Virus record (IMG/VR): IMGVR_UViG_3300037295_000360
Location: 1-64,000 of that record
Length of the DNA stretch: 64,000 nucleotides
Source: an uncultured virus (IMG/VR IMGVR_UViG_3300037295_000360)
Lineage: Duplodnaviria > Heunggongvirae > Uroviricota > Caudoviricetes
Reading direction: 5' to 3' (one strand)
Within the stretch, counting starts at the first letter, position 1. The number at the start of each line of letters is the position of its first letter. Of the stretch, positions 167 through 15,228 are shown in pieces. A program made the position numbers and the translations under genes. Under the pieces are notes generated by a model. The model saw only the letters and a program-made list of their open reading frames with translations, was not told where the DNA came from and made no database searches.

Positions 167-1303
167 ATGGAAAATTTAAATTCAGTATGTTACGTTGGTT
201 TAGTTACGGAAATTAATGAAATTAAAGGGGCTGATTTTCTTGAATTAGCATTAATCGGAGGTTGGAGTTGTGTAACTAAGAAAAACGAATTTCAAACTGG
301 TGATAAGATAGTGGTTGCAACAACCGATGCGGTCATTCCTGAGGCACTTTCAGATTTGATGGGTGTTACTACATATCTCAGAAAAGGTAACCGCGTGCGC
401 ACTGTGAAGTTACGAGGAGTATACTCCGAGTGTCTTCTTATTCCATTTAAGTATTTAGCACCGCAGTCTTTAGAAAAAAATTGTCCAGTTGGAACTGATA
501 TGATGTTAATGTTAGGTGTTACTAAATATGAGCCTCCTGTTAGACAAATTCAACTTGCTGGAGGTAGAAAAATTAAATATCGAGACAATCAAAACTTTCA
601 TGTTTATTACAAATTTCCAAATTTAAAAAATGTGGATGGAATGTTCAACGAAACAGACGAAGTTCAAATTACAAGAAAAATTCACGGAACAAACGCGAGA
701 TTCGGTATTGTTAGAAAAAATAAATTATCTATATGGGATAATATTAAAAAATACTTAAAATTTCCGGGACATAAATTCATTGGATATGAGTATGTATATG
801 GTTCACATAATGTTGAAAAAGGAAGTGACTCACAAGGTTTCTATTCTACTGATGTTTGGTCTAATATTGCAAAGCAGTATGGGATTAAAGAAAGTCTTTG
901 GGAATATGCAAAAAACATACACACTAGTATTGGTGAAGGAATTGTAATTTATGGTGAAATTTATGGAGCAGGTATTCAAAAGAACTATGAATACGGTTTA
1001 ACAGATACTCAATTTGTTGCATTCGATATTAAACGAGATGGAGAATATTTATCACCAAAAACCACCGAATTCTTAATAAATGAAGAGTTTAATCTTCCAC
1101 ATGTCGAGGTATTACACTCTGGCCTTTGGTCTCAATCAGTGCAAGACGAATTTACATTCAAAAACTTTATTAAAGGAACAAAGGTTCCACACGAAGGCAT
1201 TGTAATTAAGTATCATACTGGTGAAAGAAATAAAATAGCAAAGGTTATTAATCCAGACTATTTATGCTATAGTGAAGCAAATGATGTAGAAGATTCCCAT
1301 TAA
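167..1303 (+). CDS. RNA ligase, Rnl2/DRB0094-like, with N-terminal tRNA-binding OB-like domain
   Basis: Motif I KIHGTN, YGEIYG, AFDI and EGIVIK..K nucleotidyltransferase motifs; N-terminal ADFLE..IGGW..V. Confidence 0.88.
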   Translation: MENLNSVCYVGLVTEINEIKGADFLELALIGGWSCVTKKNEFQTGDKIVVATTDAVIPEALSDLMGVTTYLRKGNRVRTVKLRGVYSECLLIPFKYLAPQSLEKNCPVGTDMMLMLGVTKYEPPVRQIQLAGGRKIKYRDNQNFHVYYKFPNLKNVDGMFNETDEVQITRKIHGTNARFGIVRKNKLSIWDNIKKYLKFPGHKFIGYEYVYGSHNVEKGSDSQGFYSTDVWSNIAKQYGIKESLWEYAKNIHTSIGEGIVIYGEIYGAGIQKNYEYGLTDTQFVAFDIKRDGEYLSPKTTEFLINEEFNLPHVEVLHSGLWSQSVQDEFTFKNFIKGTKVPHEGIVIKYHTGERNKIAKVINPDYLCYSEANDVEDSH

Positions 1304-2843: not shown

Positions 2844-3299
2844 ATGAAACTATTTAAAACATTTGAAGAATTTTCTGTTAATCAAGTAACATGTGATAAA
2901 TGCAAGTGGGAATGGAGATTAGAAGAAGGTGGAAATGATCCATATATTTGCCATAACTGTGGAAATGACAACTATCCTGATTTTATTAGTGAGAAGGAAG
3001 ATAAGGCAACTTCACGTGAAAAACTCGCAAACGCAGCGGTTAATACTGGATTAGACAATAAGGCAAAAGCATCAGGTGTTCCTATTGGAATTATTAGAGC
3101 GGTAATGCGAAGAGGAATGGGAGCATGGAATTCAAGTCACTATGCTGGAATGACACAAGAAGGATGGGGATATGCAAGAGTAAATGCATTCTTAGAAAAA
3201 GGAAAAGGAACATGGGGAAATGCAGATAAGGATTTAGCCAAAGAAGTTAGAGACGGTGGTCATGACAAAAAACTTCCATGGAAGCCTGAAAAAGATTAA
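2844..3299 (+). CDS. Putative virion/internal protein with Zn ribbon and conserved RRG.GAW..WG.ARVN domain
   Basis: CDKC..CHNC; LDNKAKASGVP..RRGMGAW..WGYARVNAFL; N-terminus MKLFKTFEEF. Confidence 0.5.
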   Translation: MKLFKTFEEFSVNQVTCDKCKWEWRLEEGGNDPYICHNCGNDNYPDFISEKEDKATSREKLANAAVNTGLDNKAKASGVPIGIIRAVMRRGMGAWNSSHYAGMTQEGWGYARVNAFLEKGKGTWGNADKDLAKEVRDGGHDKKLPWKPEKD

Positions 3300-3306
3300 T
3301 ACATTA

Positions 3307-3678
3307 ATGAAAAGGATAAAATTATTTGAAGAGTTTTTAAACGAATCAGAGGAAACATATAATGATTATCCAGCTGCCGCATCTCAAAATGCAAAAATGG
3401 CAATTGATTGGCGCGATGAATATGGTAGAGATGAAATAAAGGCCGGTACTGCAGTTGGATGGCAACGAGCAAATCAATTAGCAAATAAAGAAAAGATATC
3501 TGCTGATGTTGTATCTCGAATGGCATCATTTAATAGACATAGAAAAAACTCAGCAATATCACCTGAATTTAAAAGTACACCATGGCTTGATAAAGGATAT
3601 GTTAGTTGGTTACTATGGGGTGGAGATGAAGGAGTTGATTGGGCTATTGAAAAGGGAAAGAAACTTAATAAAAAATAA
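3307..3678 (+). CDS. Putative head-associated protein (KLFEEF family)
   Basis: Start moved to MKRIKLFEEFLNE; GT.VGW.RA.QL, MASF.RH and WLLWGG motifs typical of phage head-associated proteins. Confidence 0.55.
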   Translation: MKRIKLFEEFLNESEETYNDYPAAASQNAKMAIDWRDEYGRDEIKAGTAVGWQRANQLANKEKISADVVSRMASFNRHRKNSAISPEFKSTPWLDKGYVSWLLWGGDEGVDWAIEKGKKLNKK

Positions 3679-3683
3679 GGCAA

Positions 3684-4226
3684 ATGAAAAAAATAAAATT
3701 ATTTGAGGAATTTATGAACGAGGCTAAAAAACAAACATATAGCGCTAATTGTGCAATGTTATACTTTGACTTTCCAAAAATGGCACAAATTCATAAAGAA
3801 ATAATAGCGTCTGATCTATTTGAATCCGATGAAGGAGGAGGTCATGGTCTAGAAACCGAATCACATTGTACTCTATTATATGGACTGAATGCAGATGTAT
3901 CATTAAATACTGTTAAAGTAAAATTACAAGGGTTTGACTTTGGTAAATGTATCGCACATAACATTTCATTATTTGAAAACAAAGAGTTTGATGTACTTAA
4001 ATTTGATATTAAGGGAGATAATTTACATGCCGCCAATAAATCTTTATGTGAACTTCCATATAAAACAGACTATCCTGATTATCATCCTCATATGACTGTT
4101 GCATATTTAAAATCAGGTATGGGAAAAAAATACGTAGAAATGTTTAATACGAATGAACATGTCTTAATTCCATCACATATTGTTTATTCAATGACAGATG
4201 GTAGTAAAAATACTATTAATATTTAA
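3684..4226 (+). CDS. 2H phosphoesterase, T4 gp57B/Acb1-like (candidate anti-CBASS nuclease), KLFEEF family
   Basis: Two HxT motifs: SHCTLLYG and DYPDYHPHMTVAY. Confidence 0.7.
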   Translation: MKKIKLFEEFMNEAKKQTYSANCAMLYFDFPKMAQIHKEIIASDLFESDEGGGHGLETESHCTLLYGLNADVSLNTVKVKLQGFDFGKCIAHNISLFENKEFDVLKFDIKGDNLHAANKSLCELPYKTDYPDYHPHMTVAYLKSGMGKKYVEMFNTNEHVLIPSHIVYSMTDGSKNTINI

Positions 4227-4315
4227 ATAGAAATTTAACAAAGATTTAACACTCTGTATTTTTTAATACGGAGTTTTTTGATTATATTTACATATACAAA
4301 TTAAAACATATTATC

Positions 4316-4846
4316 ATGGAAGACAAAATCAAATATATTTTAGAACAACATAGATCTACTAATCACATGTACGATACGTATTTACCATATGAATTTCATT
4401 TAAGAATGGTAGCTAATACTGCTCAACAATTTATAAAATTAGTTCGCAATCCAAATGACATAGAATCAGTTATTTTAGCAGCGTATGGCCACGATCTTAT
4501 TGAAGATACTAGAGTATCATATAATGATGTTAAAAATGTGATAGGACATGTTGCAGCGGATATTATTTATGCTGTTTCAAATGAAAAGGGTAAAACACGA
4601 AAGGAACGAGCAAACGATAAATACTATGAAGGAATTAAAAGCACAGAGTATGCTTTGTTCGTAAAGTTATGTGATAGAATTGCAAATGTACAATATTCAA
4701 AGATGACAAGATCTAGAATGTTCGAGATGTATAAAAAAGAAAATGATTGTTTTATTACATCATTGGGCTATTCTCAATCACATGAACTGTCTATAATGTT
4801 TATTTATTTGAATGACTTATTTACTTCAACATTTGATCAGAAATAA
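4316..4846 (+). CDS. HD-domain hydrolase, SpoT/Mesh1-like
   Basis: PYEFHL..V, AAYGHDLIEDT, VKLCDRIAN. Confidence 0.8.
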   Translation: MEDKIKYILEQHRSTNHMYDTYLPYEFHLRMVANTAQQFIKLVRNPNDIESVILAAYGHDLIEDTRVSYNDVKNVIGHVAADIIYAVSNEKGKTRKERANDKYYEGIKSTEYALFVKLCDRIANVQYSKMTRSRMFEMYKKENDCFITSLGYSQSHELSIMFIYLNDLFTSTFDQK

Positions 4847-5140
4847 ACTTTAACAAAAAGTTAACACTCCGTATTTTTAATGCGGAGTTTTTTGTTTATA
4901 TTTACATATAACTAAAAACAAAATAATATGTGGTTCAAAAAACATAAACACAAACACTATTTCGATACCTCGTTGTATAATATTCCAATGGAAAATGAAA
5001 CTAACTATATCGTAACAAAATGTAAATGTGGAGAAACAAAAATAGAAAGAGTTCATAGGAAGAGTATATCATATATGAAGTTTATTAAAATAATTACGTA
5101 AAAACAAAAACAAAATTTAAAAATAACTAAATAAAAAATT

Positions 5141-7052: not shown

Positions 7053-7517
7053 ATGAGAACGTTAAAGGATTTAAAAGTAGGAGATAATGTTTGGACAATT
7101 TACGGCGGTAAAACTAAAGTAGAAGCTATAAATTTTAAATCAACTTATCCAATTCAAATTGAATCAGGAAGCACATTTATGTTAGACGGAAAACGCTACG
7201 TTCTTCATCATCATCCATCTTTATTTTTAGAAAATCCATTTAAAACAAAATCATTATTTAATGAAAGATGGGTTCTAGTTAGTGACTCCAATATTTATTG
7301 GTGTAAAAGATGGTTAGTAAAAGAAACAAATAAAGAATACAGTTATGTAGTTTACAGTGGAGCTGCAACAGAATATGAATTAACAAAGGTAAAAGGAGAA
7401 GTTATAAGTTATAAGTTTATGAAAGAAATTGAAGAAGTTAAAATAATTGAATTAACACTCGAAGACATTGCTAAAAAATACAATGTTGATGTATCAGAAA
7501 TAAGAATAAAAGAATAA
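7053..7517 (+). CDS. Hypothetical protein
   Basis: Follows a promoter cassette; C-terminal ELTLEDIAKKYNV. Confidence 0.65.
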   Translation: MRTLKDLKVGDNVWTIYGGKTKVEAINFKSTYPIQIESGSTFMLDGKRYVLHHHPSLFLENPFKTKSLFNERWVLVSDSNIYWCKRWLVKETNKEYSYVVYSGAATEYELTKVKGEVISYKFMKEIEEVKIIELTLEDIAKKYNVDVSEIRIKE

Positions 7518-7694
7518 AACTCTTTGATTGAAGACAAACAATAATATTTTCTATTCTATAACATATTAGATAGTTAATGTAGTTTTTACAAATATTATAG
7601 ACTGTATCAGCAGTTGTGTTTGTTGTAGATATGTGTCGTTCCACAGATAGGGTCACGCCGAGCACATCCCACTGAAATTTGGGCAAAGAGTTTT
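7516..7694 (+). ncRNA. Structured RNA candidate, copy 1
   Basis: Closing stem AAAACTCTTTG/CAAAGAGTTTT with nested stems; scaffold identical to 8189-8385. Confidence 0.6.
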
Positions 7695-7963
7695 TTTAAA
7701 TACAAATAGTTATGTTAATATTATTAGATTATTGTAACAAAAATTTACCTATTTATTTAGATGAAGAAACTGAATGTATTGTATACAAAGAACATAGCAT
7801 TAATTATAAGAGTATAAAAGAAGCTTATGAAAGTGGTTATGACGTAGTTTGTATATTCAAAAAATACTTAACGATGCTAAAGATAAAAAAAGTGGTGTAA
7901 GAGTTGTCAAAGGTTTAGATGGTTTAGAAGATTTATTAAATTTTTTAAAAAAAGGAGAATAAA

Positions 7964-8182
7964 ATGGCAATAAAATTTATTATAGCAATTTTTGTAATAT
8001 TAGTAGTATTCTATTATTTAATACAATTTTTAAATAAACCTTTAGCTAAAGAAGCTAAAAATTTAGATAATTTAGAGAAAGTCTCTGAAGAAATAAAATG
8101 TGAAAATCAAAAAATCAAAGGTGATATTGAACAAACACAAAAACAATTAGATAAAATTAAAAAAAATTTAAAAAATAAATAA
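7964..8182 (+). CDS. Small membrane-anchored coiled-coil protein
   Basis: N-terminal hydrophobic helix, charged C-terminus. Confidence 0.55.
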   Translation: MAIKFIIAIFVILVVFYYLIQFLNKPLAKEAKNLDNLEKVSEEIKCENQKIKGDIEQTQKQLDKIKKNLKNK

Positions 8183-8188
8183 AAGAAT

Positions 8189-8385
8189 AAAACTCTTTGA
8201 TTGAAGACAAACAATAATATTTTCTATTCTATAACATATTAGATAGTTAATGTAGTTTTTACAAATATTATAGACTGTATCAGCAGTTGTGTTTGTTGTA
8301 AATGTATTAGTATGAGTCAAATGCAAACCTTTTAAGTGCGTAATAACTATGAAAGTATCCCACTGAAATTTGGGCAAAGAGTTTT
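8189..8385 (+). ncRNA. Structured RNA candidate, copy 2
   Basis: Same scaffold as copy 1 with a different module at 8301-8356. Confidence 0.6.
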
Positions 8386-8396
8386 TTAATAATTTA

Positions 8397-8877
8397 AAGC
8401 ATAGGTTGTGAGCAACGTGCCCCTTAATTGCACAATGTAGACTGATAGGAAAGACTATTAAAACAGGTTAAACATTGAATACCTTTGTAAATTACAAACT
8501 ATTGTGTCGGAATAAGACGAGGATTAATAATCTGGAATTGATTCCATGTAAGATAAAATTTCTTACCAAACTATTGGTTTACATAAAGATACTAGCAGTA
8601 ATGTTAGATGTGTTGTTCCCTTGAGAAAGGATAGGTTTAGAAAAGAGTGTAATATAACATACCTCACTACAACACAAATGAGTTCTCAGCAAGTAGTTAA
8701 GTGTGATAAGTGGAAAGTATCTTTAGTAACATAGGAGAAGCTCGAAACACTTTATAGGAAAGTTACTGATACCTAATTAACTACGTGACCCTACAGACTA
8801 GACTATATGTGAAAACGTAAAGGTAGTGAAACACGATTCAACATTATAATGTTGATGAGATAGTGAGGTGGGTGCTA
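8397..8877 (+). ncRNA. Large ornate ncRNA candidate (ROOL/GOLLD-like class)
   Basis: No long ORF; many long-range helices, e.g. 8584-8593/8716-8725, 8661-8669/8861-8869, 8609-8616/8669-8676, 8693-8700/8777-8784. Confidence 0.65.
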
Positions 8878-9076
8878 AAAAATTAATTGTAATTGAAACA
8901 AAAATAAAAAGTTATATATAACTAGTATAAAATAATTTAAATTCGTGAAGAAATACACTTTTTGAAAATAAATTAAAAATAAAGCTCTTTTATAGTGAAT
9001 TAGCTGAAACTAAAAGATATATAATAATATAATATGTATAAGAAAATAAAGCTTATATATAATTAAACAAATTAAA

Positions 9077-9223
9077 ATGAAAACATTGCAAATCATATCG
9101 CAGAATATTAGTCTACTTGAGATGAATCTAGCCTTACCGACAGGGGATCAAACATGTGTCTTTTATACTAGAGAATGGAAACACAATGGTTCTTTTGAAA
9201 ATCATAAAGTTAATATGAGTTAA
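9077..9223 (+). CDS. 48-aa leader-like ORF upstream of the tRNA array
   Basis: MKTLQIISQNIS...HKVNMS, A-rich leader, followed by a terminator. Confidence 0.45.
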   Translation: MKTLQIISQNISLLEMNLALPTGDQTCVFYTREWKHNGSFENHKVNMS

Positions 9224-9247
9224 AAATCTATTAACATATAAATATTC

Positions 9248-9281
9248 AAAAGGACCTCTCAAAACTGATTGGTCCTTTTTT
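9248..9281 (+). terminator. Intrinsic terminator / possible attenuator
   Basis: AAAAGGACC..GGTCCTTTTTT. Confidence 0.7.
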
Positions 9282-9291
9282 AATTTAACAT

Positions 9292-9361
9292 GTTTCGTTT
9301 AATCTTGGAGGTTGGATAGGTTGCAACCCTATCAGAAGTGGTTCGATTCCACTACGAAACT
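9292..9361 (+). tRNA. tRNA-Cys(GCA), atypical D arm
   Basis: GTTTCGT/ACGAAAC acceptor, TTGCAAC loop, U73. Confidence 0.8.
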
Positions 9362-9530
9362 CTAATAACTTTAACAAAACATTAACACTAGAGGTTTTTA
9401 TAAGTCAAATAAAATGATTATATTTACTTATAATTAAAAACAATAGAATATGTGTGAAAAGGAAAGATTATTAAGAGAATTGTTTAAGACCGTAGAAAAG
9501 AAAACAAACGGTTGGAAATGTAAAATGGAA

Positions 9531-9635
9531 ACTTTAACAAAAAATTAACACTTAAAGTTTTCAAGATTAAAAGATTTTGATTATATTTACTTATAATTAA
9601 AAACAAACGTTAATTGACATATTGATAATACTAAA
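9531..9635 (+). promoter_or_regulatory. ~105-bp tRNA promoter/leader repeat (also 10540-10644 and 11841-11945; variant 6971-7048)
   Basis: Near-identical copies ending GTTAATTGACATATTGATAATACTAAA just before a tRNA. Confidence 0.85.
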
Positions 9636-9636
9636 C

Positions 9637-9709
9637 GCGAATATCGTATAATGGCTTATTACTCTAGACTTCCAATCTGGAAATGACAGTTCGATCCTGT
9701 CTATTCGCT
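9637..9709 (+). tRNA. tRNA-Gly(TCC)
   Basis: Cloverleaf, CTTCCAA loop. Confidence 0.9.
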
Positions 9710-9738
9710 CCGGGAACCTTTTTAACATTTCCATATAT

Positions 9739-10422
9739 ATGGAAAAGTTAATTAAGGTTAAACAAGCCTCAAGGCGAAAATATCATTACATCTATAAAAC
9801 TACATGTATCATTACTGAAAGGTTTTATATTGGAATGCACTCAACTGATAACCTAGAAGATGGTTATGTTGGTTCAGGTAAAAGATTATGGCATTCAATA
9901 AACAAACATGGCAAACAAAATCATGTCACTGCGATAATTGAATATTTAAAAGATAGAGATTCTTTAAAAGCTAGAGAAAAAGAAATGGTTAATGAAGATC
10001 TATTAAAGGATCCTCAATGCATGAATTTAGCGTTAGGCGGAGAAGGTGGTGCGGGTTGCATGACTAAAGAACAATTATCTAAAGGAGGTAAAAAAATGAA
10101 TGAACTAAATTGGACTGATCCTGAATTTATAAAACGGAATGCAGAAAGAAATAAAATAAGGTTAAAAGAATTATGGAAAGATCCAGAATATAGAAACAAA
10201 ATGTTAGTTTTAATAAATTGGACTGGTAGAAAACATAAAGAAGATTCTATAAATAAAATGAAAATGTCTAAGATCGATCATGGAAAAGGATCTTTAAACT
10301 CACAATATAATACATGTTGGATTTATAAAATTACAGATGAAAAATCTATTAAAATAAAAAATAATGAAATTCAATCATATTTAGATAATGGTTGGATTGA
10401 AGGTAGGAAGATGAAATGGTAA
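9739..10422 (+). CDS. GIY-YIG homing endonuclease (Seg-like, NUMOD3-type repeat) inside the tRNA array
   Basis: YIYKTT..FYIGMH..Y.GSG; GRKHKEDSINKM. Confidence 0.85.
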   Translation: MEKLIKVKQASRRKYHYIYKTTCIITERFYIGMHSTDNLEDGYVGSGKRLWHSINKHGKQNHVTAIIEYLKDRDSLKAREKEMVNEDLLKDPQCMNLALGGEGGAGCMTKEQLSKGGKKMNELNWTDPEFIKRNAERNKIRLKELWKDPEYRNKMLVLINWTGRKHKEDSINKMKMSKIDHGKGSLNSQYNTCWIYKITDEKSIKIKNNEIQSYLDNGWIEGRKMKW

Positions 10423-10468
10423 AACATTAAATAGCAATTGACTCCTTTTATTAGAGAAAGAATTACAA

Positions 10469-10540
10469 TATCTTATAGTGTAACGGTTAGCACGAATCAC
10501 TTTGAATGATTCAGTTTAGGTTCGAATCCTAATAAGATAA
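10469..10540 (+). tRNA. tRNA-Gln(TTG)
   Basis: Cloverleaf, CTTTGAA loop. Confidence 0.85.
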
Positions 10541-10644
10541 CTTTAACAAAACTTTAACACTTAAAGTTTTCAAGATTAAAAGATTTTGATTATATTTACT
10601 TATAATTAAAAACAAACGTTAATTGACATATTGATAATACTAAA

Positions 10645-10720
10645 CGAGAGGTATAGGAGTCAGGTTTATCTAGCTGCACTTGGACTGCAGATCACGTGGG
10701 TTCGAATCCCACTCTCTCGA
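10645..10720 (+). tRNA. tRNA-Pro(TGG)
   Basis: CTTGGAC loop, C1-G72. Confidence 0.9.
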
Positions 10721-10851
10721 CTAAATCTTTAAAGATTACAATACCGCAATGATTGCCGGCTACATGCATTGATCCTTAACCCATATATTCGTTTGGGGTT
10801 CTTTCGAATTGGATAAACCGGACAGTTTTCCTAGGTGATGCTAGGATATTT

Positions 10852-10934
10852 GCTCTTATGGCGGAACAGGTAGACGCACTGGTCTTAGAAACCAACGCTG
10901 TAATGGCATCTCGGTTCGACTCCGAGTAAGAGTA
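10852..10934 (+). tRNA. tRNA-Leu(TAG)
   Basis: CTTAGAA loop, long variable arm. Confidence 0.92.
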
Positions 10935-10966
10935 CTATAATGACTATTAGGAAAGACTAATAATTT

Positions 10967-11040
10967 GCTCTCTACGCATAAATGGTGGTGCGCTGGCTTT
11001 GTAACCCGGAATAGATTCAGTTCGATCCTGAAAGAGAGCT
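10967..11040 (+). tRNA. tRNA-Thr(TGT)
   Basis: GCTCTCT/AGAGAGC acceptor, TTTGTAA loop. Confidence 0.8.
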
Positions 11041-11051
11041 CTAATTTAAAT

Positions 11052-11120
11052 TAGTAATTAGCTTAAGAGATTAAAGCGTAATACGAGATTAAGATATGGA
11101 TTCAAAAAACCATATTACAT
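11052..11120 (+). pseudogene. Degenerate tRNA-like remnant
   Basis: D-arm-like TAGCTTAA..AAGC and a weak T arm; no clean anticodon arm. Confidence 0.35.
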
Positions 11121-11134
11121 AATTTAAATTAATT

Positions 11135-11205
11135 GGCCCGGTCGTCTAAAAGCAGGACATTGTACTTTCAATTCAAAAACCGGAGAGCGTTACTCCGTCG
11201 GGCTA
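11135..11205 (+). tRNA. tRNA-Glu(TTC)
   Basis: CTTTCAA loop; T loop AGCGTTA. Confidence 0.85.
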
Positions 11206-11225
11206 CTAAAAATAAGATTAAATAA

Positions 11226-11298
11226 GGGGTTGTAGCTAAAATGGATTAGCACTTCGTTTGCAACGAAAAGTATGCGGGTTCGAGGCCCGTCAGCTCCA
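11226..11298 (+). tRNA. tRNA-Ala(TGC)
   Basis: G3.U70, TTTGCAA loop. Confidence 0.92.
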
Positions 11299-11389
11299 CA
11301 CTAGTTAAGCAATTGGTCATAAACAGCAATTGTGGATATATATGTTGTTAAGGTCCGCAAAACCCTCTAGCCAACTACTGTTTATATTT

Positions 11390-11460
11390 GGTCCATTAGT
11401 ACAAAGGCAGTATACCTGGTTGTCGCCCAGATGAAAACGGATCGTTACCGTTATGGACCG
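11390..11460 (+). tRNA. tRNA-Asp(GTC)
   Basis: TTGTCGC loop, G73. Confidence 0.88.
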
Positions 11461-11546
11461 CTAAATATTTTCTATTATTGAAAAATAGTTTAAGATAAAG
11501 TTTAAGAGTAATTAACTTAAACCTAAGAACTTTGCAAGGTTCTAGA

Positions 11547-11620
11547 TTGATTATAGTGTATTGGAGCACGGGTCATTTATTGGAAAACAGGAGTAGGGTT
11601 CGAATCCCTTCAAATCAGCA
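11547..11620 (+). pseudogene. Degenerate tRNA
   Basis: D and T arms present (AGGG TTCGAAT CCCT); anticodon arm does not pair. Confidence 0.45.
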
Positions 11621-11625
11621 AATAT

Positions 11626-11700
11626 GGCGGGCGGACCGGTCGGTATCGGAGGTAGTCTCATAAGCTACATTAAATGTAGTTCGACTCTACAGCGTCGCAA
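11626..11700 (+). tRNA. tRNA with CAT anticodon (Met/fMet/Ile2 unresolved)
   Basis: CTCATAA loop, imperfect acceptor stem. Confidence 0.75.
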
Positions 11701-11763
11701 CGATGCAGTTTATATGATTCTCTTTTCATTGAGTTCTCCTCAGAAAAACTCTAAAAAAGAAAT

Positions 11764-11835
11764 GGTCTCGTGGCGCAGCGGTAGCGCAGTTCGCTCATAA
11801 CGAAAAGGTCGCAGGTCCGAATCCTGCCGGGACCA
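11764..11835 (+). tRNA. tRNA with CAT anticodon (Met or Ile2)
   Basis: Canonical cloverleaf, CTCATAA loop. Confidence 0.88.
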
Positions 11836-11946
11836 CTAAAACTTTAACAAAAAATTAACACTTAAAGTTTTCAAGATTAAAAGATTTTGATTATATTTAC
11901 TTATAATTAAAAACAAACGTTAATTGACATATTGATAATACTAAAT

Positions 11947-12031
11947 GGAATTTATCCGGGTGGATGAGGAGCTTGTTTTGAAAACAAGTAACAGGTTATA
12001 CTGTTGTGGGTTCGAATCCCACACCTTCTTC
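11947..12031 (+). tRNA. tRNA-Ser(TGA), imperfect acceptor stem
   Basis: TTTGAAA loop, long variable arm. Confidence 0.75.
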
Positions 12032-12119
12032 AAATAAAATCTTAATTATAAGTATCTCCCAAAACATTCTAAGTTATATTTAAAGGAGAGAGAAGAACTT
12101 AGAGTACTTATAATTACAC

Positions 12120-12190
12120 GCCCTTGATGCTTTAAAGTGAAGCACCTAGCTTTTAACTAGGGGAAGTAGGAGCATTACCTACCAGGGGTA
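12120..12190 (+). tRNA. tRNA-Lys(TTT)
   Basis: CTTTTAA loop; T loop AGCATTA. Confidence 0.85.
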
Positions 12191-12249
12191 CACGGATGAG
12201 ACTGTTACTAATACATAGAGCTACATATTGCTAGCATAGAATTAGATTT

Positions 12250-12320
12250 GCCTCGTTGGCGTAATGGAAGCGTAATTGTTTTACATGCAATTGGCAGTGG
12301 TTCGATTCCACTACGAGGTA
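12250..12320 (+). tRNA. tRNA-Val(TAC)
   Basis: TTTACAT loop. Confidence 0.88.
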
Positions 12321-12418
12321 CAAAAATGGGAATAAACAAACAAATGACTGCAATCCTTATTTTGTTTATAAACATACTATGAAAGTTAAATCTTGCAGGA
12401 AATAACTACTAATAGTTT

Positions 12419-12481
12419 TGCTAATGGTATTCTGGGAATACACCACATAAGTGGAGAGTAGGTTTCGAATCCCTTTGGTAA
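12419..12481 (+). pseudogene. Shortened tRNA-like remnant
   Basis: Mini D and anticodon hairpins plus a TTCGAAT T loop. Confidence 0.35.
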
Positions 12482-12506
12482 TCAAATTTAAGTTTTCTTA
12501 AAAACT

Positions 12507-12587
12507 GGGAACAGAAAGTCGTTTGGATACGGCAGCGAGACTGTAAATCTCGTCCGAAAGGGAGTGGTTCGAGTCCACCCGGTCCCA
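12507..12587 (+). tRNA. tRNA-Tyr(GTA)
   Basis: CTGTAAA loop, variable arm. Confidence 0.88.
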
Positions 12588-12674
12588 CTAAACTTTAACA
12601 TGTTAAAGTTGATTAAAACATAATGTCAACGTATTGGAATTTAAACCCCCGTTAGGCTCTGATATTATGTAATT

Positions 12675-12747
12675 GCGGATTAAGCTAATCTGGTGAAAGC
12701 GCATGGTTGAAGCCCATGAGAGACAGGATCGTAACCTGTAATCCGCA
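12675..12747 (+). tRNA. tRNA-Phe(GAA)
   Basis: TTGAAGC loop. Confidence 0.88.
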
Positions 12748-12800
12748 CAGCGTTAAAGGTAATGCTGAACGTCAAACGACAATCCGGAAAGACGGATAAT

Positions 12801-12872
12801 GGATCGGTAGCTCAGGGGCAGAGCGGATGTTTGTTAGGCATCGGGTCGAGATTTCGAAATTCTCCCGGTCCG
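12801..12872 (+). tRNA. tRNA-Asn(GTT)
   Basis: TTGTTAG loop, G73. Confidence 0.88.
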
Positions 12873-12877
12873 CTAAA

Positions 12878-12958
12878 TTGCAATGGTGGTCGCCATCGGT
12901 CTCATGAGCCGTGTTGGTAGTATATACCTGGTGGAGGTTCGATTCCTCCAATTGCAAC
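12878..12958 (+). tRNA. Atypical CAT tRNA-like RNA (vestigial D arm, long variable arm)
   Basis: TTGCAAT/ATTGCAA acceptor, CTCATGA loop, canonical T arm. Confidence 0.55.
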
Positions 12959-13054
12959 AAAATTGCTAAAAATAAATAAAAAGTGACCTGACGCCAAGAA
13001 ATGACGTCCGCAATAAAACATTCAGTGGGAGTCAACCACATTTAGCGATCAATT

Positions 13055-13194
13055 GCCCGAATAGGTACTAAGGTATATCCTTAGTGGCGAGTGGGCTAAC
13101 GATGGTTTAATATTACTGCCCGATATTCTAGATAAAGCATGGAAAGTGATTAAACATGTGGTTAGCAGGGTTGGTTCGATTCCATCTTTGGGCA
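13055..13194 (+). ncRNA. 140-nt tRNA-like RNA with greatly extended anticodon arm
   Basis: GCCCGAA/TTTGGGC-A acceptor, TTCGATT T loop, GCTAAC/GTTAGC and GTTTAAT/ATTAAAC stems. Confidence 0.6.
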
Positions 13195-13202
13195 CAAAAA
13201 AT

Positions 13203-13274
13203 TCACCTGTAGTAGAATGGTTAGCACACATCTCTGATAAGGATGAAATGGAAGTTCAATTCTTCCCAGGTGAA
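13203..13274 (+). tRNA. tRNA-Ile(GAT)
   Basis: CTGATAA loop. Confidence 0.85.
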
Positions 13275-13280
13275 CAATAT

Positions 13281-13351
13281 TCGCATGTAGTATAGGGGTT
13301 AGCACGCATCCCTATCGCGATGAAATGGAAGTTCAAATATTCCCATGTGAA
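13281..13351 (+). pseudogene. Diverged tandem duplicate of tRNA-Ile with altered anticodon loop
   Basis: Colinear with 13203-13274; loop region CCTATCGC. Confidence 0.55.
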
Positions 13352-13358
13352 TAATAAT

Positions 13359-13441
13359 AGAGAGTAAACTAGAATGGTTCTAGCACTGTTTGCTAAACAG
13401 TTGGTCCGAATTCGGATGGGGATCGTAACCTCTTCTCTCTA
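13359..13441 (+). tRNA. tRNA-Ser(GCT)
   Basis: TTGCTAA loop, variable arm. Confidence 0.85.
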
Positions 13442-13573
13442 CTAAGTACCTGTAAAGCGTTAGAGAATTGGTGCACCAATATATTATGTAGAATGGCCAT
13501 TTTATTATAGTAACGTTGTCTTAGGTTGATCAAGTTCGAATCTTGATAGACAAACTTAATACGATACTTAAAT

Positions 13574-13642
13574 TGCGATTTGATCTAGGATCGAGAATAT
13601 CTCATAAGTATTTTCAGACAGGAGCGTAACCTGTAATCGCAA
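13574..13642 (+). tRNA. tRNA with CAT anticodon, short D arm
   Basis: TGCGATT/AATCGCA acceptor, CTCATAA loop. Confidence 0.7.
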
Positions 13643-13668
13643 CGAAGATTAGTTACTAATCTCCATAT

Positions 13669-13741
13669 GGTGTTTGAAGCTTTTTAGTGAAGCGCAAGAC
13701 TGTGAATCTTGAGAAGACGGGGCAGTACCGTCCTAACACCC
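13669..13741 (+). tRNA. tRNA-His(GTG)
   Basis: G-1/C73, CTGTGAA loop. Confidence 0.85.
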
Positions 13742-13964
13742 GACATCTCCAAAATGGAGAATGACTTGGTAATGAATTTATTTCAAACAAACTCAATACC
13801 TTAAGTTGAGCTGCTAATCTACGGGATTAGTTATTAAAAATAAAAATAGTAGTGAAGCTGTATTTATATTACTTTATTCTCGCTGATTGTTGAAAAGGCG
13901 TTAGGAGATTCAGATGAGTTAGTAATATCACAGAATGCCTGAAAGACCCGAAACTATTTTAAAC

Positions 13965-14046
13965 TCCCTTTTGATGGAACAGTAGACATGTCAGACTTAA
14001 AATCTGGTGCCTTTATGGTGTGCGAGTGCAACTCTCGTAAGGGGAA
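13965..14046 (+). tRNA. tRNA-Leu(TAA)
   Basis: CTTAAAA loop, variable arm. Confidence 0.85.
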
Positions 14047-14052
14047 CTATAT

Positions 14053-14127
14053 AATCCTATAGCTTAATCGGAAAAGAGCGCTGTGCTACGAACGCAGAGG
14101 ATATAGGTTCGAGTCCTATTGGGATTT
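14053..14127 (+). tRNA. tRNA-Arg(ACG)
   Basis: CTACGAA loop. Confidence 0.9.
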
Positions 14128-14144
14128 CAAATATTAATTGTTGA

Positions 14145-14360
14145 AGTTTATGGACGTTTTGCAAGACTCGAGTTCGACTCTCGACATCTCCACTAAATTA
14201 GAAGTAATATAAGGGGATGACTGGTTTTGATTGCAATATAGGATATAAGACGAGATTGATATCAATGCAAACGACAAATTTGCCTTAGCAGCGTAGTTGC
14301 TGTTAGGTATTAACTTCCAGAGAGGTTATTTATCTACGTCACCTGAAACGAAATTCAGGA
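14145..14360 (+). ncRNA. ssrA: Circularly permuted (two-piece) tmRNA; tag ANDKFALAA at 14267-14296; outer ends approximate
   Basis: 3' half (T arm plus CATCTCC-A, ending 14192) precedes 5' half GGGGATG (14213); G3.U; TTGCAA/TTGCAA helix; tag ORF with stop hairpin. Confidence 0.88.
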
Positions 14361-14364
14361 ATTT

Positions 14365-14436
14365 GCCTCTATAGTTTAATTGGAAAAACGGATCTCTTCT
14401 AAAGATCAAACATGGGTTCGACTCCCGTTAGAGGTT
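14365..14436 (+). tRNA. tRNA-Arg(TCT)
   Basis: CTTCTAA loop. Confidence 0.9.
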
Positions 14437-14511
14437 CTAATATTAAAGAAACAGAGTAACATTTAGACAACCATTATATAGTAGAATTTAACTTAGACAT
14501 TTTCTTTAAAT

Positions 14512-14694: not shown

Positions 14695-15228
14695 ATGTAT
14701 AATCATACAATATCAATGAAAAAGTACACCAAAACACTAGTGCTTGACTCTAGTTACATGCCAAGAAGTATTATCACTAGTCTACGAGCATATGTCGTTG
14801 TTATTAAGGGAAACGCAGCAATCGTTGAAGAACATGATTGTAATTTTAAATTATGCAATCCAGATACGATTATAAAAAAGCCATCAGTTATTAGAGTTCA
14901 GAAGTACGTAAACACCCGACACAATAAGGTTCCGTTAACAAGGGAGAATGTATTTAAGAGGGATGGAAATATGTGTGTATATTGTGGAGATGACAATATT
15001 AAAACACTAACCATAGATCATGTTGTTCCTCAGTCTAAAGGAGGTGGAAATTCATGGGATAATTTAGTAACCGCATGTAAAAGATGCAATGGAGAAAAGG
15101 CAGATTTAAGCTTAGAAGAATTTGGAAAAGACATACCAGTGCCAAAACGACCTCATTATCTAATGCTATTAAAATCCATTGAATATATTCCAGAAGAATG
15201 GAAAAAATACATGTTTTTCTCAGTTTAA
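14695..15228 (+). CDS. HNH endonuclease (McrA-like)
   Basis: RDG..CVYCG, TIDHVVP.SKGG..WDNLVTAC..CN..K. Confidence 0.92.
   Translation: MYNHTISMKKYTKTLVLDSSYMPRSIITSLRAYVVVIKGNAAIVEEHDCNFKLCNPDTIIKKPSVIRVQKYVNTRHNKVPLTRENVFKRDGNMCVYCGDDNIKTLTIDHVVPQSKGGGNSWDNLVTACKRCNGEKADLSLEEFGKDIPVPKRPHYLMLLKSIEYIPEEWKKYMFFSV

What the first reader, a model, noticed from the sequence alone, without database searches (positions are those of the whole stretch)
8397..8877. ~480-nt ornate non-coding RNA just upstream of the tRNA array
Seen: a stretch with no long ORF and raised GC, closed by AGCAT/GTGCT. Long-range helices include TAAAGATACT 8584/AGTATCTTTA 8716, ACCTCACTA 8661/TAGTGAGGT 8861, TGTGTTGT 8609/ACAACACA 8669, TTGAGAA 8621/TTCTCAG 8683 and GTAGTTAA 8693/TTAACTAC 8777. 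Several cross each other, implying pseudoknots. Local hairpins include TCAACATTATAATGTTGA. Known: ROOL and GOLLD are large pseudoknotted phage RNAs of unknown function often found beside tRNA genes. Inference: a member of such a class or a new one.
Basis: partly seen in the sequence, partly recalled or inferred. Interest (0 to 1): 0.75.

Follow-up and report, generated by a model that had tools for sequence, protein, structure and literature searches.

The report
Uncatalogued pseudoknotted phage RNA gene
The flagged stretch is a gene for a folded, knotted non-coding RNA of about 415 bases from a family found almost only in phages, missing from the RNA family catalogue, abundant in one cultured phage, and still without a known job.

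Summary
A real structured RNA gene lies at about 8465-8881 on the + strand, not 8397-8877. It belongs to a phage-only family that is absent from Rfam 15. I collected 89 distinct full-length members (216-518 nt) from viral contigs. One is the "g004-g005 junction" transcript of Cellulophaga crAss-like phage phi14:2, reported as very abundant, rightward, early and persistent, with unknown function.

Five sequence blocks are near-invariant. Covariation supports helices P0, Pa, Pb, H1 and X, and two pseudoknots in which two hairpin loops dock side by side on one linker. Across the model, 93.4% of cells pair against 85.1% in shuffles, and 0 of 500 shuffles reach the observed covariation score.

Two (8584/8716, 8661/8861) and the AGCAT/GTGCT closure are not conserved. 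On this sequence alone, neither fold energy nor inverted repeats beat chance.

It is not ROOL, GOLLD, RNase P, a group I or II intron, HEARO or tmRNA by Rfam. The function is unknown. My best guess is a stable trans-acting fold, matured with the phage's tRNA/tmRNA genes, that binds a conserved host component or is a ribozyme. This scan found the same family earlier on seven other stretches of DNA.

The parts
8465..8881 (+). The RNA gene: the conserved extent, from the first base of helix P0 to just past the invariant 3' GCUAA
   Evidence: Conservation profile over 45 relatives. Extent in 89 relatives. In relatives a tRNA ends 2 nt before this start (L028) and a tmRNA starts 2 nt after this end (L037).
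8465..8484 (+). Hairpin P0: AGGU 8465-8468 pairs with ACCU 8481-8484. Its loop UAAACAUUGAAU is block B1.
   Evidence: Stem variants AGC/GCU, UCG/CGA, ACC/GGU, GGC/GCC, UGG/CCA and UCA/UGA are read from the list. 91.6% of cells are paired.
8473..8476 (+). PK1 5' strand, CAUU in the P0 loop. It pairs with AAUG 8677-8680.
   Evidence: A short subfamily has CCC:GGG in place of CAU:AUG. CG replaces AU or UA at 2 pairs in 4 sequences.
8485..8588 (+). Arm Pa: UUGUAAA(U) 8485-8492 pairs with UUUAC(AU)AA 8578-8586 around a variable three-way insert. The arm is absent in the shortest relatives.
   Evidence: 5 of 6 inner pairs change on both sides. Arm missing in L035, L126 and others. Window fold.
8592..8607 (+). 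Hairpin Pb: CUAGCA, GUAA tetraloop, UGUUAG
   Evidence: All 6 pairs change on both sides. Loop G and A are at least 90% conserved.
8609..8676 (+). Helix H1: UGUGUUG 8609-8615 pairs with CAACACA 8670-8676. It encloses hairpin X and a variable hairpin.
   Evidence: All 7 pairs change on both sides, for example ACGUGAG/CUCACGU.
8616..8632 (+). Hairpin X: stem 8617-8619 with 8629-8631, and the conserved loop CUUGAGAAA
   Evidence: All 4 stem pairs change on both sides while the loop sequence is kept.
8621..8627 (+). PK2 5' strand, UUGAGAA in the X loop. It pairs with UUCUCAG 8683-8689.
   Evidence: 93.6% of cells are paired. Two compensated variants are seen: UGAGCA with UGCUCA in L128, and UGAAAA with UUUUCA in L083.
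8668..8700 (+). Block B3, the near-invariant heart: H1 3' strand, AAUG (PK1), unpaired AG 8681-8682, UUCUCAG (PK2), CAA, then the H3 5' strand
   Evidence: A 28-mer from it occurs exactly in 50 viral contigs. Conservation.
8693..8784 (+). Helix H3: GUAGUUAA 8693-8700 pairs with UUAACUAC 8777-8784 around a variable insert
   Evidence: 94.5% of cells are paired, but both sides change at only 2 of 7 pairs. The helix is conserved rather than proven by covariation.
8785..8878 (+). GUG linker, then arm P5: ACCC 8788-8791 pairs with GGGU 8870-8873 around a variable insert. The invariant unpaired tail GCUAA 8874-8878 follows.
   Evidence: 99.2% of cells are paired with no covariation. Invariant columns.

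Best explanation
Window 8465-8881 (+) is a gene for a stable, highly folded non-coding RNA. It is a member of an unnamed family that moves between very different phages, from crAss-like to T4-like.

Shown:
- Five sequence blocks are near-invariant.
- The helices covary.
- The core is compact. Two hairpin loops (the P0 loop and the X loop) pair side by side with one linker, AAUG-AG-UUCUCAG. This makes two pseudoknots stacked against helix H1.
- Optional outer arms (Pa, Pb, and the inserts in H1, H3 and P5) vary from nothing to more than 100 nt.

Inferred:
- The RNA is made with the phage's tRNA and tmRNA genes and is cut out by the host enzymes that trim them.
- The conserved unpaired bases are all in runs too short for antisense action. 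They would form a pocket or active site, so the RNA acts through its three-dimensional fold.

My split for the mechanism:
- About 0.35: it binds and redirects a conserved host component of translation or RNA processing.
- About 0.15: decoy against a host defence nuclease.
- About 0.12: ribozyme.
- About 0.10: RNA-only multimer like ROOL or GOLLD.
- The rest: unknown.

The confidence given below is for 'a real structured RNA gene of this family', not for any one mechanism.
For: Relatives:
- An exact 28-mer from block B3 is in 50 viral contigs, and an exact 16-mer from B4 is in 91.
- These yielded 89 distinct full-length copies of 216-518 nt.
- A 21-mer from B3 is in only 2 of the 185,579 species genomes scanned, both MAG contigs.

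Structure (50 pairs, 89 sequences):
- 93.4% of cells pair, against 85.1% in shuffles.
- 33 pairs change on both sides, against 17.8.
- The covariation score is 0.189, against 0.066 (0 of 500 shuffles reach it) and 0.022-0.046 for slid partners.

Strand:
- There are 210 G-U cells against 78 A-C cells.
- Every flanking tRNA or tmRNA gene that ARAGORN called, in 22 of 89 loci, is on the same strand.

Expression of a relative:
- The phi14:2 copy lies at about 2912-3362, just after g004 (2194-2904).
- The preprint reports the g004-g005 junction as transcribed rightward, above most protein genes, from the earliest time point and without decline.

Context:
- A tmRNA lies just downstream in 13 loci.
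- All 5 of 5 large carrier contigs tested hold 2-25 tRNA genes.
- No neighbouring protein family is shared by more than 7 of 89 loci.
- In the window, an RNA ligase and an Acb1-like gene lie upstream and about 20 tRNA genes lie downstream.
Against: - No transcript is shown for this phage.
- On this sequence alone, fold energy and inverted repeats are at chance level.
- H3 and P5a never covary, so those pairings are inferred from conservation only.
- PK1 does not fit a few members such as L091 and L071.
- All relatives were found with exact words from B3 or B4, so the invariance of those blocks is partly built in.
- Related sequences can beat column shuffles without any structure, as the tool's own caveat says.
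- The MAFFT alignment is poor in the variable arms.
- Three rows (L111, L062, L059) have a false 5' end inside an HNH gene and were not removed from the counts.
- tmRNA is not always present: 2 of 5 large contigs have one.
- Nothing here tests any mechanism.
Confidence: 0.88

Rival explanations
1. It is a ribozyme. The two guide-like loops clamp the linker strand and leave an almost invariant AG (8681-8682) unpaired between the two pseudoknot helices, as substrate arms do in small self-cleaving ribozymes. Alternatively it acts in trans on tRNA or tmRNA precursors.
For: A conserved pseudoknotted core with optional outer arms, GNRA loops, and T-arm-like hairpins in some inserts. It sits in a stable-RNA gene cluster.
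Against: No known ribozyme family matches. The preprint describes a long abundant RNA and gives no sign of cleavage. The distance to the next tRNA or tmRNA ranges from 2 to more than 700 nt, which argues against a fixed role in releasing the neighbour. The idea rests on topology alone.
Confidence: 0.12
2. It is a decoy or inhibitor made early to blunt a host defence that attacks tRNA or other RNA, or that senses phage RNA.
For: In phi14:2 it is early, abundant and persistent. The window has an Acb1-like anti-CBASS gene and an RNA ligase a few kb upstream. In contigs of at least 60 kb, 53% of 49 copies lie in the terminal tenth, where 20% is expected (KS p = 2e-5). This fits a first-injected early region.
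Against: About 45 near-invariant bases across very different phages would be unusual for a decoy of a fast-evolving defence. The end bias may come from assemblies breaking near repeats and tRNA arrays. No defence partner is known.
Confidence: 0.15
3. It is an RNA-only multimeric assembly, in the manner reported for ROOL and GOLLD.
For: Earlier notes of this scan report tandem copies in other phages (not checked here).
Against: There is no Rfam match to ROOL or GOLLD. Members can be as short as 216 nt. I saw no conserved self-complementary loop in the blocks (by eye).
Confidence: 0.1
4. It is a cis-acting leader or processing element for the downstream tRNA/tmRNA transcript, not a product in its own right.
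For: It has the same strand and close spacing as tRNA/tmRNA genes in 22 of 89 loci.
Against: In three large contigs the tRNA arrays lie 10-100 kb away. In phi14:2 the RNA itself accumulates. Leaders of 216-518 nt with invariant cores are not known.
Confidence: 0.05
5. It is a very divergent member of a known class: RNase P RNA, group I intron, HDV-like ribozyme or IscB omega-RNA.
For: It has five conserved blocks, a pseudoknotted core, a size near that of RNase P RNA, and HNH genes next to a few copies.
Against: There is no match to any Rfam model at E up to 10 in the window, up to 1 in the phi14:2 locus, or up to 0.1 in 20 relatives. The order of strands does not fit group I P3/P7, or RNase P P4 with its A-rich 5' strand (my comparison from memory). 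There are no flanking exons. The HNH genes are about 180 aa (HNH_3), not IscB-sized.
Confidence: 0.03
6. There is no functional RNA: it is a conserved DNA site, or a small protein gene read in another code.
For: The sequence alone is no better than chance. The original phi14:2 record had three tiny minus-strand ORFs here.
Against: Compensatory changes in at least 33 pairs. Whole blocks are invariant at every position, and lengths range from 216 to 518 nt. The tiny ORFs were removed from RefSeq. The relative is transcribed.
Confidence: 0.02

Closest known systems
The abundant 'long non-coding RNA' of the g004-g005 junction of Cellulophaga crAss-like phage phi14:2 (preprint 10.1101/2020.03.07.982082; passages read)
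   Same: It is homologous. The same five blocks occur in the same order and on the same strand, and it sits near a tmRNA gene. It is one row (L038) of the 89-sequence alignment.
   Different: The phi14:2 copy has a branched Pb arm and different inserts. The host phage is crAss-like, while the window's phage carries T4-like genes. The preprint gives no structure, family or function.
ROOL and GOLLD (large ornate RNAs of phages and bacteria, often near tRNA genes; function unknown)
   Same: A large, pseudoknotted, phage-borne RNA near tRNA genes, with no known function.
   Different: No sequence or structure match in Rfam. It is smaller (216-518 nt) and has a different core. Whether it multimerises is not known.
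RNase P RNA
   Same: Comparable size, five conserved blocks, a long-range pseudoknot, optional outer arms, and linkage to tRNA/tmRNA genes.
   Different: No Rfam match. The pseudoknots here are formed by hairpin loops. The GGAAAGUCC-type P4 signature (recalled) is absent.
Candidate structured RNAs of IMG/VR (Fremin et al. 2023, PMC10690425; passages read and 6 supplementary files searched)
   Same: The same kind of source and method: conserved intergenic phage RNAs with covariation.
   Different: Their candidates are 29-151 bases long. Four words from blocks B3 and B4 (two motifs, each as DNA and RNA) were not found in the 6 files searched. The alignment files (1, 2) and file 4 could not be searched, so a fragment of this RNA may be listed there.

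Membership tests
Unnamed phage RNA family (phi14:2 g004-g005 transcript family) | Five conserved blocks in fixed order: UAAACAUUGA; AAAGAUA..AGAUG..CUUGAGAAA; AAAUGAGUUCUCAGCAAGUAG; AACUACGUGACCCUAC; GGGUGCUAA | tested here: met
   All five are present at 8469-8478, 8585-8628, 8676-8696, 8779-8794 and 8870-8878.
Unnamed phage RNA family (phi14:2 g004-g005 transcript family) | Helices P0, Pa, Pb, H1, X, H3 and P5a, and pseudoknots PK1 and PK2, can all form | tested here: met
   All form in the window (and coordinates).
Unnamed phage RNA family (phi14:2 g004-g005 transcript family) | Made as an abundant stable RNA during infection | not testable with these tools
   This is known only for phi14:2, from the preprint. 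No data exist for this phage.
ROOL | Match to the Rfam covariance model (that Rfam holds it is recalled) | tested here: not met
   No match at gathering score over the whole window or at E up to 10 over 8100-9300.
GOLLD | Match to the Rfam covariance model (that Rfam holds it is recalled) | tested here: not met
   Also no match over 20 relatives at E up to 0.1.
RNase P RNA | Match to an Rfam RNase P model, and a P4 helix with its conserved A-rich 5' strand | tested here: not met
   No model match. The P4 signature was looked for by eye only, from memory.
Group I intron | Match to the Rfam model, and an interrupted host gene with joinable exons | tested here: not met
   No model match. The flanks differ between loci, and no protein family is shared by more than 7 of 89 loci.
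HEARO / IscB omega-RNA | Match to the Rfam model, and an adjacent IscB-type nuclease gene | tested here: not met
   No model match. No ORF over 72 aa lies within 900 bases on either side in the window. The HNH_3 genes beside 5 relatives are about 180 aa.
tmRNA | Match to the Rfam tmRNA models or an ARAGORN call | tested here: not met
   The only tmRNA-type match in the window is at 14146-14296. In relatives the tmRNA is a separate gene downstream.

The most novel reading that the evidence does not exclude
This family is a new class of natural ribozyme carried by phages. Two internal guide loops (the P0 loop and the X loop) clamp one strand and present an invariant unpaired AG to a core built from the invariant bases of blocks B2, B4 and B5. 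The RNA would cut or join itself there, or use the same clamp in trans on host or phage RNAs of the translation apparatus.
Probability: 0.12. Interest if true: 0.9.

Novelty: new variant of a known kind. Interest (0 to 1): 0.62.

Why it matters
Large, strongly conserved structured RNAs without a function are rare, and they have often turned out to be ribozymes, RNP scaffolds or new assemblies. This one has several features that make it worth pursuing:
- It is widespread in uncultured phages of several habitats and crosses phage lineages.
- It is among the most abundant transcripts of a cultured crAss-like phage.
- It has natural versions of about 220-260 nt, short enough for probing or cryo-EM.
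- It is not in Rfam, so genome annotation misses it and tiny false ORFs get called over it.

A cultured system (Cellulophaga baltica with phi14:2) exists in which its role could be tested directly.

Tried and rejected
- **Rfam.** The whole window at gathering score, 8100-9300 at E up to 10, the phi14:2 locus and 20 relatives gave nothing on the element. The only hits were chance-level ones (SNORD19B, DdR6).
- **Single-sequence statistics.** Fold z-scores and inverted-repeat counts are not significant.
- **Promoter and terminator scan of 7400-9700.** It found 13 promoter-like sites against 15.6 expected, and no terminator, so it is uninformative.
- **Covariance model.** I used counts on a MAFFT alignment instead.
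- **Sequencing runs.** No RNA holder is listed for window 8100-9400. The DNA holders are mostly salt-lake metagenomes.
- **Obligatory pairing with tmRNA.** Rejected. Only 2 of 5 large carrier contigs have a tmRNA over the cut-off.
- **A conserved partner protein next door.** Rejected. The largest neighbour cluster covers 7 of 89 loci.
- **A tmRNA-like tag frame starting at GCA of GCAAGUAGUUAA.** The frames run on into unrelated, unconserved peptides in L053 and phi14:2 (read by eye).
- **Antisense regulator.** No conserved unpaired run exceeds about 7 nt.
- **RNase P, group I and HDV-like topologies.** Compared from memory; the strand orders do not fit.
- **Second copy.** There is none in the window or in the 170-kb record.
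- **Literature.** Searches found no named family. The journal version of the phi14:2 paper is not held. Their expression tables may bear on the claim.

Full report
**What is at the coordinates**

The stretch has no ORF longer than 49 aa. Its G+C is 0.315-0.35, against 0.155-0.20 on either side.

Taken alone, the sequence does not beat chance:
- The minimum free energy of 8397-8877 has a z-score of -1.26 on the + strand and -0.81 on the - strand.
- Perfect inverted repeats of at least 8, 9 and 10 bp number 4, 2 and 1. In 500 dinucleotide shuffles the means are 2.2, 0.56 and 0.13 (p = 0.18, 0.10, 0.11).
- Rfam 15 has no family matching the stretch, at gathering score over the whole window or at E up to 10 over 8100-9300.

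**Relatives**

A blastn search of phage records found one partial match, in the crAss-like Cellulophaga phage phi14:2. Reading that locus showed the same five sequence blocks in the same order over about 450 nt.

- An exact 28-mer from the central block occurs in 50 IMG/VR contigs.
- An exact 16-mer from the fourth block occurs in 91 stretches, of which 80 were fetched with flanks.
- A 21-mer from the central block occurs in only 2 of the species genomes of the bacterial and archaeal collection. Both are contigs of metagenome bins.
- From these loci I extracted 89 distinct full-length copies of 216-518 nt.
- The window's record holds one copy.

The conservation profile puts the 5' edge of the family at about 8465 and the 3' edge at about 8878-8881. 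Positions 8397-8465 are not conserved. In relatives, a tRNA ends 2 nt before the RNA in L028, and a tmRNA begins 2 nt after it in L037. These agree with the edges.

**Structure**

By hand, from the shortest members and from the 89-row MAFFT alignment A3, I derived this model, in window coordinates:
- **P0:** 8465-8468 with 8481-8484. Its loop is block B1.
- **Pa:** 8485-8492 with 8578-8586.
- **Pb:** 8592-8607, with a GUAA loop.
- **H1:** 8609-8615 with 8670-8676. It encloses hairpin X and a variable hairpin.
- **X:** stem 8617-8619 with 8629-8631, loop CUUGAGAAA.
- **H3:** 8693-8700 with 8777-8784.
- **P5a:** 8788-8791 with 8870-8873, followed by the unpaired tail GCUAA.
- **PK1:** CAUU of the P0 loop (8473-8476) with AAUG (8677-8680).
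- **PK2:** UUGAGAA of the X loop (8621-8627) with UUCUCAG (8683-8689).

The two loops therefore dock side by side on one linker. An almost invariant AG (8681-8682) is left unpaired between them.

Counts on A3 for 50 pairs:
- 93.4% of cells pair, against 85.1% in shuffles.
- 33 pairs change on both sides, against 17.8.
- The covariation score is 0.189, against 0.066. None of 500 shuffles reaches the observed value on any measure.
- Slid partners give 0.022-0.046.

Support differs between helices:
- H1, X, Pb and inner Pa covary strongly.
- P0 covaries more than the alignment shows. The stems AGC/GCU, UCG/CGA, ACC/GGU, GGC/GCC, UGG/CCA and UCA/UGA can be read.
- PK2 has two compensated variants: UGAGCA with UGCUCA in L128, and UGAAAA with UUUUCA in L083.
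- PK1 is supported by a short subfamily with CCC:GGG. It does not fit L091 or L071.
- H3 and P5a are conserved but do not covary.

Caveats:
- All relatives were fished with words from blocks B3 or B4.
- Relatedness alone can beat column shuffles.
- The variable arms are badly aligned.
- Three rows (L111, L062, L059) have a false 5' end inside an HNH gene. They stayed in the counts.

**Strand**

G-U cells outnumber A-C cells 210 to 78. Every flanking tRNA or tmRNA gene called by ARAGORN, in 22 of 89 loci, is on the RNA's strand. The phi14:2 transcript is rightward, which is the same strand.

- 8609/8669, 8621/8683 and 8693/8777 are H1, PK2 and H3 of the family. The crossing of H1 and PK2 is real.
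- 8584/8716 has a perfect complement only in the window and in L040, which share the same 3' half. Two further sequences of the 73 tested have a complement with 2 mismatches.
- 8661/8861 is complementary at 9 of 9 positions only in the window. The next best of 89 is 7, and most have 3-4. L040 lacks the 5' partner.
- Both of these helices compete with family helices.
- With the family helices enforced, the window RNA folds at -70.7 kcal/mol without the pseudoknots, against -79.7 unconstrained.
- The AGCAT partner of the proposed closure lies outside the conserved RNA.

**Expression of a relative**

In RefSeq, phi14:2 g004 is 2194-2904 and g006 is 4602-4901. The tiny ORFs once annotated between them were removed. 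The RNA lies at about 2912-3362, and a near-threshold tmRNA match lies at about 4031-4502.

The preprint 10.1101/2020.03.07.982082 (passages read) says that the g004-g005 and g005-g006 junctions:
[quoted passage not shown] - do not decline later;

The first junction is this RNA family. The second is, by my reading, the tmRNA.

**Context**

The window's phage is not crAss-like. It encodes an RNA ligase, an Acb1-like protein, DNA ligase, thymidylate synthase and SHMT. The RNA is followed by about 20 tRNA genes and a permuted-tmRNA match.

In relatives:
- A tmRNA follows within 2-750 nt in 13 loci.
- Of five large carrier contigs, all five have 2-25 tRNA genes, but only two have a tmRNA over the cut-off.
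- No protein family is a constant neighbour. The largest cluster covers 7 of 89 loci.
- An HNH_3 endonuclease gene lies 4-15 nt upstream in part of a short subfamily.

The window and L040 are 98.7% identical from 8668 to 9710. Upstream of 8668 they share only the conserved blocks. A recombination joint therefore lies inside the invariant central block.

In contigs of at least 60 kb, 53% of 49 copies lie in the terminal tenth of the contig, where 20% is expected (KS p = 2e-5). This may reflect an early region near a genome end, or assemblies breaking near repeats.

**What it does**

Nothing here tests function. Three observations bear on it:
- The conserved unpaired bases come in runs of at most about 7 nt, spread around a double-pseudoknot core.
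- The outer arms are optional.
- The RNA travels alone between unrelated phages.

I take this as an RNA that works through its fold rather than by antisense pairing or with a phage-encoded partner. Its company (tRNA and tmRNA genes) and its early, lasting abundance point to the host's translation or RNA-processing apparatus as the target (about 0.35). The rivals are a decoy against defence (0.15), a ribozyme (0.12) and an RNA-only assembly (0.10).

**Novelty**

Four literature searches found no named family. The IMG/VR catalogue of candidate RNAs (PMC10690425) holds only motifs of 29-151 bases. Its searchable supplements lack four words from blocks B3 and B4 (two motifs, each as DNA and RNA), but its alignment files could not be searched.

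This scan had already met the family on seven other stretches of DNA, with the same verdict. I reached mine before reading those notes.

Noticed in passing
window 7517-7700 and 8190-8390 (+): Two copies of a roughly 180-200 nt element lie upstream of the RNA. They are 99% identical over the first 114 nt, differ in the middle, and share the last 31 nt. A 10-bp closing stem (AAACUCUUUG with CAAAGAGUUU) and a small hairpin before a U run are present. Relatives exist in two viral contigs (L157, L158), one directly after a tRNA. This is probably a second small structured RNA family.
   Followed up: partly
window 8668, against L040: The window and L040 are 98.7% identical from 8668 to 9710 but unrelated upstream apart from the conserved blocks. 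A recombination joint therefore sits in the invariant central block of the RNA.
   Followed up: partly
window 9367-9443 and 9529-9607: A 77-79 nt repeat lies between tRNA genes and holds a TTATAAT-like box. In L040 a 95% identical copy lies about 150 nt upstream of the RNA. It is possibly the promoter unit of the stable-RNA genes.
   Followed up: no
window 9292-14437: The two tRNA finders disagree. Rfam lists 18 tRNA matches and ARAGORN lists 15. Five are Rfam-only: 11135, 11946, 12120, 13281 and 13965. Two are ARAGORN-only: Cys at 9292 and Tyr at 12508. Rfam also matches a permuted tmRNA at 14146-14296, which ARAGORN did not call.
   Followed up: no
window 13352-13964: About 600 bases inside the tRNA array have no tRNA, no Rfam match and no ORF over 46 aa, with G+C of 0.34-0.40. 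This could be another non-coding RNA.
   Followed up: no
window 167-1303, 3684-4226, 14695-15228: An RNA ligase, an Acb1-like anti-CBASS protein and an HNH endonuclease flank the stable-RNA island. This suggests an early, counter-defence and RNA-repair neighbourhood.
   Followed up: no
L096, L126, L092, L136 and relatives; L111, L062: An HNH_3 homing-type endonuclease gene lies 4-15 nt upstream of part of the short subfamily of the RNA. In L111 and L062 my 5' boundary fell inside such a gene.
   Followed up: partly
108 carrier contigs: The RNA gene tends to lie near contig ends. In contigs of at least 100 kb, 60% of 20 copies are within the terminal tenth.
   Followed up: partly
L035, L037 (H3 insert), L097 (Pa insert): Canonical tRNA T-arm-like hairpins (GUGG-UUCAAAU-CCAC and variants) are inserted in the variable arms of some members.
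   Followed up: no
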